From assembly GCF_003334815.1 (NCBI RefSeq), contig NZ_QOWO01000028.1: 53,280 nucleotides of DNA; one strand, written 5' to 3'. A program made the position numbers and the translations under genes. The notes beneath the pieces were generated by a model. That model did not search any database, was not told the origin of the DNA, and saw nothing but the letters and a program-made list of their open reading frames with translations. This document shows positions 1 to 1,665 of this stretch, piece after piece; position 1 is the first letter of the stretch; each line of letters opens with the position of its first letter. The stretch comes from Escherichia coli. GTDB taxonomy: Bacteria > Pseudomonadota > Gammaproteobacteria > Enterobacterales > Enterobacteriaceae.

Positions 1-77
1 CTTTTCAAAAGGGTATTTTGGCTTTGACATATTAGGGGCTATTCCATTTCATCGTCCAACAAAATGGGTGCAGTACA
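1..77 (-). mobile_element. Terminal segment of an IS3-family insertion sequence (IS150-like), truncated by the window edge
   Basis: Reverse complement of 37-77 reads TGTACTGCACCCATTTTGTTGGACGATGAAATGGAATAGCC, which matches my recollection of the IS150 left inverted repeat and has the IS3-family TG terminus. Position about 33 bp upstream of the hokA ATG agrees with the known K-12 hokA/IS150 arrangement. From memory, not verified. Confidence 0.5.
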
Positions 78-109
78 TACTCGTTGGAAATCAACACAGG
101 AGGCTGGGA

Positions 110-262
110 ATGCCGCAGAAATATAGATTACTTTCTTTAATAGTGATTTGTTTCACGCTTTTATTTTTCACCTGGATGATAAGAGATTCACTGTGTGAAT
201 TGCATATTAAACAGGAGAGTTATGAGCTGGCGGCGTTTTTAGCCTGCAAATTGAAAGAGTAA
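110..262 (+). CDS. hokA: Hok-family type I toxin HokA (50 aa)
   Basis: Translation MPQKYRLLSLIVICFTLLFFTWMIRDSLCELHIKQESYELAAFLACKLKE is a typical Hok/Gef peptide. AGGAGG Shine-Dalgarno lies just upstream of the ATG. The track ORF 68-262 is an in-frame GTG extension. Confidence 0.85.
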   Translation: MPQKYRLLSLIVICFTLLFFTWMIRDSLCELHIKQESYELAAFLACKLKE

Positions 263-392
263 GAGTCTTCGGCGGGAAATTATTCCCGCCTTACTTACGG
301 CGTTGCGCATTCTCATTGCACCCAAATTTATTCTTCACAAAAATAATAATAGATTTTATTACGCGATCGATTATTTATTTCCTGAAAACAAA

Positions 393-424
393 TAAAAAAA
401 TCCCCGCCAAATGGCAGGGATCTT
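393..424 (-). terminator. Intrinsic terminator downstream of cspA
   Basis: Minus-strand GC-rich hairpin (ATCCCTGCC...GGCGGGGAT) followed by a run of T, directly 3' of the cspA stop. Confidence 0.6.
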
Positions 425-448
425 AGATTCTGTGCTTTTAAGCAGAGA

Positions 449-661
449 TTACAGGCTGGTTACGTTACCAGCTGCCGGGCCTTTAGCGCCGCTTTCGATG
501 GTGAAGGACACTTTCTGACCTTCGTCCAGAGATTTGTAACCATCGTTCTGGATAGCAGAGAAGTGTACGAACACATCTTTAGAGCCATCGTCAGGAGTGA
601 TGAAGCCGAAGCCTTTGTCAGCGTTGAACCATTTTACGATACCAGTCATTTTACCGGACAT
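449..661 (-). CDS. cspA: Major cold shock protein CspA (70 aa)
   Basis: Translation [70 protein letters not shown] contains the RNP1/RNP2 cold-shock-domain motifs (KGFGFI, VFVHF). Confidence 0.97.
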
Positions 662-820
662 AGTGTATTACCTTTAATAATTAAGTGTGCCTTTCGGCGA
701 TATGGCGTGCTTTACAGATTTTGAAGCGTTAAAGGAATGTGCACTACGAGGGGTATCAACGATAACTCTTGAAGGGACTTGCCTTACTACACTGCTTTAA
801 TGGTCTGTACGTCAAACCGT
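662..820 (-). promoter_or_regulatory. cspA long 5' UTR (cold-responsive leader, about 159 nt)
   Basis: Established knowledge that cspA mRNA has a roughly 159-nt leader acting as an RNA thermosensor; coordinates are inferred from the ATG position, with an AT-rich promoter/UP region beyond it. TSS not determined from sequence. Confidence 0.5.
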
Positions 821-941
821 TGATGTGCATTAAGCCACGCATTGGCGGGTGATGCAACAATTATTTTTCATATTTATGATTAATCGGTTGGAAAACGGTC
901 CTGTCATCAGGACCGTAAACAGCAATAAAGTGGATAAAAGT

Positions 942-1232
942 CTATTCCATCAACTGCTTACTTAATGCCGGGTTGGCTTGAATCAAACGCATCAATTTTA
1001 GTTCGGCACTTGAAGGCTTCACGCGTCTGGATTCCCATTCCTTTACCATGGCGACTGATACGCCCAAAACCCGGGCGAAATCATCGATTTTTAATCCTGT
1101 CCCTTTTCGTAACTGCTCAATTTCGGTACAGGACGTTGTTCTGTGCGTCAGGGTAATTTTCTGCGTTTCATCTTTAAAAACAATCTGTTCCAGGCTGCTC
1201 AACAGCTCATGCATTGGATCTTTATATTCCAT
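942..1232 (-). CDS. yiaG: HTH (XRE-family) transcriptional regulator YiaG (96 aa)
   Basis: 96-aa ORF matching recalled E. coli YiaG; HTH-like segment near the C-terminal half. Confidence 0.88.
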   Translation of the reverse strand: MEYKDPMHELLSSLEQIVFKDETQKITLTHRTTSCTEIEQLRKGTGLKIDDFARVLGVSVAMVKEWESRRVKPSSAELKLMRLIQANPALSKQLME

Positions 1233-1665
1233 TGAAAACTCCTCAAATCACACTGCGGGATCGTGAATTGCATCGAAGCTCATTAAGAATAGTCGGGAAA
1301 AGCAGACACAGCGGGGTGAAGTCAGGGCATGCTCTGGCTATGATTCGATTCAGCCTGTCATTTAGCGTGACTTATAGCCACCTAACGATCTGATAAATGC
1401 CGATATATCTCTTACCACTCCTGTTTTGTAAAGATTTCGAAAATCTAACCTTCTGCGAAGGCGTAAATCTCTGGCTACAAAAAAGGCAACGGCACTATCA
1501 TTTTTTAACAATGAAACAACAAATTAACCTTGTTTCATTTTCTCCATGATTTTACCAGGAAGATTACGTAGAAAGGGTATCCTGCAAGCCTGTCCTGGAC
1601 TATCCTTGTCACGTCAGACACGCGTGTGTCGTTGTGCGCTTTTTTTGGGTGAAAGGAGTAAGAAA

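What the first reader, a model, noticed from the sequence alone, without database searches (positions are those of the whole stretch)
68..262. hokA toxin ORF with strong SD and an in-frame upstream GTG extension
The 50-codon hok ORF is intact and preceded by AGGAGG. An in-frame GTG at 68 would add 14 residues (VQYILVGNQHRRLG) and lies inside or immediately at the putative IS end. Whether hokA is expressible, and whether any Sok-like antisense RNA survives, cannot be decided from this window.
Basis: partly seen in the sequence, partly recalled or inferred. Interest (0 to 1): 0.3.

Follow-up and report, generated by a model that had tools for sequence, protein, structure and literature searches.

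The report
IS150-orphaned hokA toxin gene relic
This is the well-known hokA toxin gene of E. coli K-12: an IS150 insertion cut it off from its promoter, leader reading frame and antisense antitoxin RNA, so it is an ordinary, already annotated relic.

Summary
An intact 50-codon Hok/Gef ORF lies at 110-262. An in-frame GTG at 68 sits inside the last 77 bases of an IS150 copy. The window is 100% identical to E. coli K-12 MG1655.

Uninterrupted hokA loci in other E. coli show that K-12 has IS150 (1443 bp) in place of 39 nt. Those 39 nt carry the mokA Shine-Dalgarno sequence, the mokA ATG and its first nine codons, and the -10 box and 5' end of the antisense SokA RNA. mokA is in frame with hokA. 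The "14-residue GTG extension" is therefore four IS150-derived codons fused to the last ten mokA codons.

The hokA promoter, 80 nt of leader and the 3' half of sokA lie beyond IS150, outside the window. No SokA gene survives in the window, only its inferred -35 box.

NC_000913.3 already annotates mokA and sokA as pseudogenes at exactly these boundaries, and the literature cites Pedersen and Gerdes 1999 for the IS inactivation. The same junction occurs in 1662 of 5426 complete E. coli genomes.

Verdict: already known, low interest. The most useful side observation is a second, independent IS150 insertion in the opposite orientation in other lineages.

The parts
1..77 (-). Left (IRL, transposase-upstream) end of IS150. 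The insJ start codon is at 30..28 on the minus strand. The element tip is ...GGGTGCAGTACA, ending at 77.
   Evidence: The 1443-bp element is delimited by TGTACTG... inverted ends in the K-12 locus. The IS150 mobile element and insJ are annotated in NC_000913.3. The junction sequence is shown.
68..109 (+). Chimeric in-frame extension. GTG CAG TAC A (IS150 tip) is fused to the last 32 nt of mokA, giving VQYI + LVGNQHRRLG. It has no Shine-Dalgarno sequence.
   Evidence: ORF list. The native MokA N-terminus is MHRHHKVSLLLVGNQHRRLG in the uninterrupted loci. Anti-SD pairing upstream of GTG68 is -0.9 kcal/mol, against -7.8 for the native mokA start.
78..262 (+). mokA pseudogene remnant (b4647). It lacks its SD, its ATG and its first nine and a bit codons, and runs in frame through hokA to the shared stop.
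   Evidence: NC_000913.3 annotation 3720448..3720632, converted to window coordinates. Alignment with uninterrupted loci.
98..103 (+). hokA Shine-Dalgarno AGGAGG, six bases before the ATG. It lies inside the mokA frame and in the last small hairpin of the hok leader model.
   Evidence: Sequence. Rfam RF01794 alignment positions 127-152 on the uninterrupted locus. Duplex energy -10.3 kcal/mol. Other lineages have AGGGGG.
110..262 (+). hokA coding sequence: an intact 50-aa Hok/Gef membrane toxin.
   Evidence: NCBIfam NF007290 at 129.7 bits, Pfam PF01848 at 1.6e-21. The protein is identical to that of strain HH97, whose locus is uninterrupted.
89..94 (-). Inferred -35 box (TTGATT) of the sokA promoter. 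This is the only part of sokA left in the window. The -10 box (TAACCT), the inferred start and the first ~20 nt of SokA were in the deleted 39 nt.
   Evidence: Antisense-strand alignment with the upstream regions of annotated sokB and sokC. All three share TTGxxx, then ~17 nt ending in GTAAGAGGC, then the -10 box. This is inferred by analogy, not mapped experimentally.
271..290 (+). 3' stem-loop of the hokA mRNA (GGCGGGAAATTATTCCCGCC).
   Evidence: MFE folds of the uninterrupted mRNA and of the K-12 remnant.
311..323 (+). Fold-back inhibitory (fbi) element TCTCATTGCACCC. It is complementary to the mRNA 5' end (tac, GGGUGCUUGAGA), which in K-12 lies beyond IS150.
   Evidence: The MFE fold of the uninterrupted 363-nt mRNA closes 5' nt 1-12 with this segment. 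The energy drops from -128.3 to -135.9 kcal/mol once it is included.
239..310 (-). ysaE, an annotated 23-aa small ORF antisense to the hokA 3' end. It is a neighbour, not part of the toxin system.
   Evidence: Annotation. Listed among experimentally verified novel sORFs in PMC8921622.

Best explanation
The window holds the toxin-proximal half of the chromosomal hokA/mokA/sokA type I toxin-antitoxin locus of E. coli K-12, orphaned by IS150.

In uninterrupted loci the system is read as follows. A ~363-nt mRNA starts at GGGUGCUUGAG. Its 5' tac element pairs with the 3' fbi element (window 311-323), which keeps the mRNA closed. The leader ORF mokA has a GAGG SD and an ATG 20 codons upstream of hokA, in the same frame. 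By analogy with R1 hok/sok, mokA must be translated for ribosomes to reach the hokA start. A ~55-60-nt antisense RNA, SokA, is made from an inferred promoter (TTGATT, 17 nt, TAACCT) and covers the mokA start region.

In K-12, IS150 plus one extra T replaces 39 nt, GAGGCCCCTCTATGCATAGACACCATAAGGTTAGCCTCT. This has three effects:
- It moves the hokA promoter and the first 80 nt of leader 1.44 kb away.
- It deletes the mokA SD, its ATG and nine codons.
- It deletes the inferred SokA -10 box, start site and 5' recognition end, and strands the SokA terminator half on the far side of IS150.

What remains is an intact, potentially toxic HokA ORF with its own SD. It has no known promoter, no coupling ORF and no antitoxin, so it is a silent relic. 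GTG68 is a fortuitous start codon in the IS150 terminal repeat that happens to be in the mokA/hokA frame.

Shown here: the anatomy, the homologies, the deletion and the population counts. Inferred: silence of the gene, the SokA promoter assignment, and the regulatory mechanism (by analogy with R1 hok/sok).
For: - The window is 100% identical to K-12 MG1655.
- IS150 is 1443 bp and ends at window 77.
- Uninterrupted loci from HH97, RM9387 and 57_142493 carry 39 extra nt between the K-12 flanks.
- Rfam RF01794 (the hok leader/sok model) scores 119-125 bits on uninterrupted loci. The deleted 39 nt are model positions 84-123, the mok-start/Sok-target hairpin.
- The window gives no RF01794 match even at E <= 10. 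The far side of IS150 keeps model positions 1-83 and scores 70.1 bits.
- NC_000913.3 annotates the mokA pseudogene at window 78-262 and a 35-nt sokA pseudogene beyond IS150.
- The SokA candidate folds like annotated SokB and SokC: a single-stranded 5' tail, a long hairpin, then a U-rich tail.
- tac/fbi closure appears in the fold of the uninterrupted mRNA.
- No sigma-70-like promoter is found in window 1-450.
- The 150-bp ends of IS150 showed no detectable promoter activity on either strand in a dual reporter (PMC12095673). The reported outward promoter of IS150 is at its 3' end, which here points away from hokA (PMC11101190).
- Two papers cite Pedersen and Gerdes 1999 for K-12 hokA, hokC and hokE being inactivated by insertion elements (PMC7232551; PMC12214031).
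- HokA is listed among the toxic positive controls in an overexpression assay whose HokA CDS came from E. coli genomic DNA (MG1655 or LR27) (bioRxiv 10.1101/2025.08.07.668861).
Against: - No expression data were examined directly.
- hokA keeps a strong SD and an undamaged ORF, so any read-through transcript could in principle be translated without mokA.
- A review reports that Kim et al. linked hokA to MqsR toxicity and persister formation; the strain is not named in the passage read (PMC3021852).
- ysaE-hokA is listed as a convergent overlapping transcript pair in at least half of 58 MG1655 transcriptomes (PMC12288877). The two CDSs overlap physically and the criterion is relative to each gene's own coverage, so this says little about how much sense RNA there is.
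- The SokA promoter and 5' end are assigned by analogy only. The consensus promoter scan did not flag them in the uninterrupted locus.
Confidence: 0.88

Rival explanations
1. hokA is not fully silent. Low-level transcripts enter from the IS150 left end or from further upstream, and HokA is translated directly from its own AGGAGG without mokA. This would give K-12 a weakly expressed toxin with no antitoxin.
For: - The ORF is intact and the SD is strong (-10.3 kcal/mol).
- The + strand of the IS150 tip carries a perfect -35 hexamer TTGACA (24-29), followed 17 nt later by TTTCAT (47-52), facing hokA.
- hokA has been linked to MqsR toxicity and persister formation in work summarised in PMC3021852.
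- ysaE-hokA is listed as an overlapping transcript pair.
Against: - TTTCAT lacks the critical A at position 2, and the consensus scan finds no promoter in 1-450.
- The IS150 left 150 bp had no detectable promoter activity on either strand (PMC12095673).
- In R1, hok is not translated when mok translation is abolished (PMC9841398).
- In the fold of the remnant, the hokA SD/ATG region stays paired with downstream coding sequence.
- Appreciable Hok without Sok would be lethal. A chromosomal R1 hok copy without Sok yielded only mutated clones.
- The Keio-type hokA deletion also removes part of ysaE, so those phenotypes are ambiguous (inference).
Confidence: 0.08
2. The GTG68 ORF is functional. Either it is the true 64-aa product, or it acts as a surrogate mok whose translation restores coupling to hokA.
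For: GTG68 is in frame and is the only canonical start codon in the open frame upstream of hokA. It re-creates the last ten mokA codons, including the stretch across the hokA SD. R1 data indicate this is the part of mok whose translation matters.
Against: - There is no Shine-Dalgarno sequence upstream of GTG68 (-0.9 kcal/mol).
- No promoter is known upstream.
- The GTG belongs to the IS150 terminal inverted repeat, so it was not selected at this locus.
- The HokA family model covers only residues 15-64 of the extended protein.
- The reference annotation treats this frame as a pseudogene.
Confidence: 0.02

Closest known systems
hokA/mokA/sokA locus of E. coli K-12 (b4455, b4647, b4614), described as IS150-inactivated by Pedersen and Gerdes 1999 (cited in PMC7232551 and PMC12214031)
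   Same: Identical sequence. The IS150 boundary is the same, as are the mokA and sokA pseudogene limits in NC_000913.3.
   Different: Nothing. This is that locus, and the window shows only its toxin-proximal half.
hok/mok/sok of plasmid R1 (type I toxin-antitoxin, post-segregational killing)
   Same: - The toxin belongs to the Hok/Gef family.
- The leader RNA of the uninterrupted hokA locus matches Rfam RF01794 end to end.
- It has a GAGG mok SD, 5'-3' tac/fbi closure, and an antisense RNA over the mok start (mechanism from PMC9841398).
   Different: - In hokA the mok frame is in frame with hok and starts 60 nt upstream. In R1 the offset is 58 nt, so mok is out of frame (R1 coordinates).
- The hokA leader is ~24 nt shorter.
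- In K-12 the mok start, sok and the leader are removed or displaced.
[quoted passage not shown]
hokC/mokC/sokC and hokB/mokB/sokB of K-12
   Same: Same architecture. The annotated Sok 5' ends lie 9-11 nt inside mok. The GTAAGAGGC block precedes the sok -10 box in all three loci. SokA, SokB and SokC fold alike. mokC shares its stop with hokC, as mokA does with hokA.
   Different: sokB and sokC are annotated as complete ncRNAs. sokA is split and lacks its promoter. At hokC, IS186 lies 3' of hok rather than in the leader.

Membership tests
Hok/Gef toxin family (Pfam PF01848; NCBIfam HokA equivalog NF007290) | A ~50-aa protein that matches the family profile over its full length and above the curated cut-off. 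| tested here: met
   NF007290 at 129.7 bits against a cut-off of 89, covering residues 1-50 of 50. PF01848 at E = 1.6e-21.
Complete hok/mok/sok type I toxin-antitoxin locus | An overlapping mok leader ORF with its own SD and start codon upstream of hok. | tested here: not met
   The SD (GAGG), the ATG and nine codons lie in the 39 nt that K-12 lacks. Only 32 nt of mokA remain upstream of hokA.
Complete hok/mok/sok type I toxin-antitoxin locus | A sok antisense RNA gene with a promoter, complementary to the mok translation start region. | tested here: not met
   Only the inferred -35 box (89-94, minus strand) is in the window. The -10 box, the start and the 5' ~20 nt are deleted. A 35-nt 3' remnant is annotated beyond IS150. 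No Rfam match in the window.
Complete hok/mok/sok type I toxin-antitoxin locus | A hok mRNA 5' leader (tac, ucb, Sok-target hairpin) contiguous with hok. | tested here: not met
   RF01794 positions 1-83 lie on the far side of IS150 (70.1 bits). Positions 84-123 are deleted. Only positions 124-157 remain in the window.
Complete hok/mok/sok type I toxin-antitoxin locus | A 3' fold-back (fbi) element complementary to the mRNA 5' end. | tested here: met
   Window 311-323 pairs with nt 1-12 of the uninterrupted mRNA in the MFE fold. In K-12 its partner is 1.5 kb away.
Complete hok/mok/sok type I toxin-antitoxin locus | Toxicity of the Hok product and its repression by Sok. | not testable with these tools
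   HokA is listed among the toxic positive controls in an overexpression assay whose HokA CDS came from E. coli genomic DNA (bioRxiv 10.1101/2025.08.07.668861). Repression by SokA was not examined here.
IS150 (IS3 family) | A 1443-bp element with TGTACTG... terminal inverted repeats and a two-ORF frameshifted transposase. | tested here: met
   Length and ends. The insJ/insK and IS3-like IS150 transposase annotations, with programmed frameshift.
IS150 (IS3 family) | A short (3-bp) target-site duplication flanking a simple insertion. | tested here: not met
   The K-12 flanks are ...AAAGTT and TACTCG..., with no duplication and 39 nt missing. The opposite-orientation copy in strains 405 and 190 does have an AAG duplication.

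The most novel reading that the evidence does not exclude
The hokA leader is a recurrent IS150 target, and the second insertion type may not be a simple knockout.

Besides the K-12-type insertion with deletion (1662 of 5426 genomes), a second, independent IS150 sits in the opposite orientation with a clean AAG duplication, immediately 5' of the mokA SD, in roughly 900-1130 genomes. That arrangement places the IS150 3' end, reported to carry an outward promoter, directly upstream of an intact mokA-hokA that has lost its inhibitory 5' leader. It also splits the SokA terminator hairpin. If that promoter drives mokA-hokA, those lineages would carry a rewired toxin under IS150 control.

For the window itself, the most novel reading is that the IS150 tip GGGTGCA (66-72) stands in for the lost tac element by pairing with fbi (317-323).
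Probability: 0.1. Interest if true: 0.4.

Novelty: already known. Interest (0 to 1): 0.08.

Why it matters
It matters little beyond correct annotation. The analysis explains why an intact toxin ORF with a good ribosome-binding site can sit in K-12 without an antitoxin: its promoter, leader ORF start and antisense RNA were all removed or displaced by one IS150-associated event. It also shows that the apparent N-terminal extension is an artefact of the fusion of mokA to IS150. The population counts are 52% uninterrupted, 31% K-12-type and the rest other interruptions. The existence of a second independent IS150 insertion could interest people studying the fate of chromosomal type I toxin-antitoxin loci.

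Tried and rejected
- Rfam scans of the window (1-1500 at E <= 1, and 40-340 at E <= 10) found no hok or sok family match. This is informative rather than a failure, because uninterrupted loci match strongly.
- The consensus promoter scan found nothing relevant in the window or in the uninterrupted locus. I therefore assigned the sokA promoter by aligning with annotated sokB and sokC. It remains an inference.
- The repeat search gave no target duplication or other useful repeat around IS150.
- I tried to derive the K-12 junctions from a simple insertion followed by a one-sided deletion. No 3-bp duplication scheme reproduces both flanks and the extra T, so I left the origin of the deletion open.
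- Pedersen and Gerdes 1999 (PMID 10361310) is not held in the library. Its conclusions are cited through PMC7232551 and PMC12214031.
- The first count of the opposite-orientation junction was inflated by plasmid records. The left-junction count probably includes some K-12-type genomes aligned at 80-90% identity through the similar inverted repeats, so I give a range only.
- The ExcludonFinder listing of ysaE-hokA was considered as expression evidence. I judged it uninformative because the two CDSs overlap physically.

Full report
**Observation**

The first 700 bases of the window are 100% identical to E. coli K-12 MG1655. The ORF at 110-262 on the + strand encodes 50 residues. It matches the NCBIfam HokA equivalog NF007290 over its full length at 129.7 bits (cut-off 89), and Pfam HOK_GEF at E = 1.6e-21. 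In the full K-12 locus that frame is open back to a stop 19 nt before the window start, and GTG68 is the only ATG/GTG/TTG in it upstream of the hokA ATG.

**The IS end**

In the K-12 record the window begins inside IS150. The element is 1443 bp with TGTACTG... inverted ends, and its last base is window 77. NC_000913.3 places the IS150 boundary at the same base and the insJ start codon at window 30..28 on the minus strand. GTG68 therefore belongs to the left (transposase-upstream) terminal repeat of IS150.

**What is missing**

I joined the two K-12 flanks of IS150 and searched 5426 complete E. coli genomes.
- 2826 genomes carry the locus uninterrupted, and it is 38 bases longer than the joined flanks.
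- Alignment of three such loci (HH97, RM9387, 57_142493) shows what K-12 lacks. IS150 plus one extra T replaces 39 nt, GAGGCCCCTCTATGCATAGACACCATAAGGTTAGCCTCT.
- HH97 is otherwise identical to K-12 across both flanks and has the same HokA protein, so it represents the pre-insertion allele.
- The K-12 junctions show no target-site duplication.

**What the 39 nt are**

Rfam RF01794 is named sok but models the hok mRNA leader from +1 to the hok AUG. It matches the uninterrupted loci end to end at 119-125 bits. The mRNA therefore starts at GGGUGCUUGAG, 149 nt upstream of the hokA ATG. The deleted 39 nt are model positions 84-123, the hairpin that carries the mok SD (GAGG) and the mok start.

The ATG in this hairpin lies exactly 60 nt upstream of the hokA ATG with no intervening stop. 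MokA is therefore an in-frame 20-codon extension, MHRHHKVSLLLVGNQHRRLG. This agrees with NC_000913.3, where the mokA pseudogene (b4647) spans window 78-262 and shares its stop with hokA.

Upstream of GTG68 there is no Shine-Dalgarno pairing: -0.9 kcal/mol, against -7.8 for the native mokA start and -10.3 for hokA.

**Sok**

NC_000913.3 annotates a 35-nt sokA pseudogene (b4614) on the far side of IS150, outside the window. The annotated sokB and sokC RNAs start 9-11 nt inside mokB and mokC. On the antisense strand all three loci share a -35-like TTGxxx hexamer, about 17 nt ending in GTAAGAGGC, and then the -10 position. For hokA this reads TTGATT, 17 nt, TAACCT.

A SokA starting about 7 nt after that -10 box folds like SokB and SokC, with a short single-stranded 5' tail, a long hairpin and a U-rich tail. 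In K-12 only the -35 box (window 89-94, minus strand) remains next to hokA. The -10 box, the start and about 20 nt of the 5' end were in the deleted segment, and the 3' hairpin arm is beyond IS150.

The window gives no RF01794 match even at E <= 10. The far side of IS150 still matches model positions 1-83 at 70.1 bits. So no SokA gene survives here. The promoter assignment is by analogy, and the consensus scan did not flag it.

**The 3' end**

Folding the uninterrupted mRNA shows nt 1-12 (GGGUGCUUGAGA) pairing with TCTCATTGCACCC at window 311-323. The energy drops from -128.3 to -135.9 kcal/mol once that segment is included. This is the tac/fbi closure described for R1 hok (PMC9841398). The window keeps the fbi element and the 3' stem-loop (271-290) but not their 5' partner.

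**Mechanism**

In R1, hok is translated only if mok is translated at least up to the hok SD. Sok blocks the mok start, and the full-length mRNA is held inert by tac/fbi (PMC9841398). By homology the uninterrupted hokA locus should work the same way.

In K-12 the toxin ORF has lost its promoter and leader (displaced 1.44 kb), its coupling ORF start (deleted) and its antitoxin (deleted and split). Three results argue that nothing drives it:
- No sigma-70-like promoter is found in window 1-450.
- The reported outward promoter of IS150 is at its 3' end (PMC11101190), which here faces away from hokA.
- The 150-bp ends of IS150 gave no detectable promoter activity on either strand in a dual reporter (PMC12095673).

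The best reading is a silent relic that is still potentially toxic. HokA is listed among the toxic positive controls in an overexpression assay whose HokA CDS was amplified from E. coli genomic DNA, MG1655 or LR27 (bioRxiv 10.1101/2025.08.07.668861). Two papers cite Pedersen and Gerdes 1999 for K-12 hokA, hokC and hokE being inactivated by insertion elements (PMC7232551; PMC12214031).

**Rival explanations**

Leaky expression from the IS150 tip cannot be excluded without expression data.
- A perfect TTGACA at 24-29 followed 17 nt later by TTTCAT faces hokA.
- A review links hokA to MqsR toxicity and persister formation (PMC3021852).
- ysaE-hokA is listed as an overlapping transcript pair (PMC12288877). 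The two CDSs overlap physically, so this says little.

A functional GTG68 product or a surrogate mok is unlikely. There is no SD, the codon is IS-derived, and the family profile covers only residues 15-64 of the extended protein.

**Population**

| Query | Genomes with at least 80% of the query in one place (of 5426) |
|---|---|
| Joined K-12 flanks (uninterrupted locus) | 2826 |
| K-12 right junction (IS150 tip to mokA remnant) | 1662 |
| K-12 left junction | 1643 |
| Opposite-orientation IS150, left junction | 1133 |

The last count is probably inflated by cross-alignment of the two similar inverted repeats. Subtracting the first two rows from 5426 leaves at most 938 genomes for all other interruption types.

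In strains 405 and 190, IS150 sits in the opposite orientation with a clean AAG duplication, immediately 5' of the mokA GAGG. This is an independent insertion. One strain has IS1 cutting off the hokA N-terminus.

**Verdict**

The only additions here are three: the exact description of the 39-nt loss as the mok-start/Sok-target hairpin, the explanation of the GTG extension as a fusion of IS150 to mokA, and the population counts with a second independent IS150 insertion. Interest is low.

Noticed in passing
window 239-310 (minus strand); L011 377-445: ysaE is a 23-aa small ORF listed among experimentally verified novel sORFs. It overlaps the hokA 3' end in antisense and lies just downstream of the cspA terminator (397-424, minus strand), so it may be translated from cspA read-through. 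yncP occupies the same antisense position at the hokB 3' end. The two peptides are not obviously similar.
   Followed up: partly
L007 2750-4192 and L008 2753-4195 (strains 405 and 190): A second, independent IS150 insertion lies in the hokA leader. It is in the opposite orientation, has a clean AAG duplication, and sits directly 5' of the mokA SD, in roughly 900-1130 of 5426 genomes. The IS150 3' end, reported to carry an outward promoter, abuts an intact mokA-hokA. The SokA terminator hairpin is split.
   Followed up: partly
window 66-72 and 317-323: The IS150 tip GGGTGCA is complementary to the hokA fbi element TGCACCC, so it mimics the lost tac element GGGUGC. The MFE fold of window 60-330 closes with this helix. 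My rough chance expectation is about 0.03, so it is probably coincidence.
   Followed up: partly
window 77/78 and L001 1634/1635: The K-12 IS150 has no target-site duplication. The 39 nt lost are exactly one hairpin of the leader (Rfam RF01794 positions 84-123), and one extra T sits at the left junction. The event that produced this was not resolved.
   Followed up: partly
window 24-52 (+ strand): TTGACA (24-29), 17 nt, TTTCAT (47-52) form an outward-facing proto-promoter in the IS150 left end, overlapping the insJ start codon on the other strand. One point mutation would give a good -10 box. Reporter work found no activity for the unmutated IS150 ends.
   Followed up: partly
L009 788-1574: Strain A30 has an IS1A insertion that removes the N-terminal half of hokA, a third way this locus is disrupted. 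yiaG in the same strain has an internal stop.
   Followed up: no
window 394-821 (minus strand): The full-length cspA thermoregulator (Rfam RF01766, 500.8 bits) covers the cspA mRNA. RefSeq PGAP labels the gene cspE in many records although it is cspA in NC_000913.3.
   Followed up: no
L007 4576-4947: Strain 405 carries an extra gene, annotated as yidD (membrane protein insertion efficiency factor), between hokA and cspA. It is absent from K-12 and from the other loci examined.
   Followed up: no
window 98-103; alignment A1 column 316: The hokA SD is AGGAGG only in the K-12/HH97 allele. The other lineages examined have AGGGGG and HokA variants (E36G, K47N; F15C in strain 405). MokA codons 2-3 vary between lineages while the Sok -10 region is invariant among the three uninterrupted loci.
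   Followed up: partly
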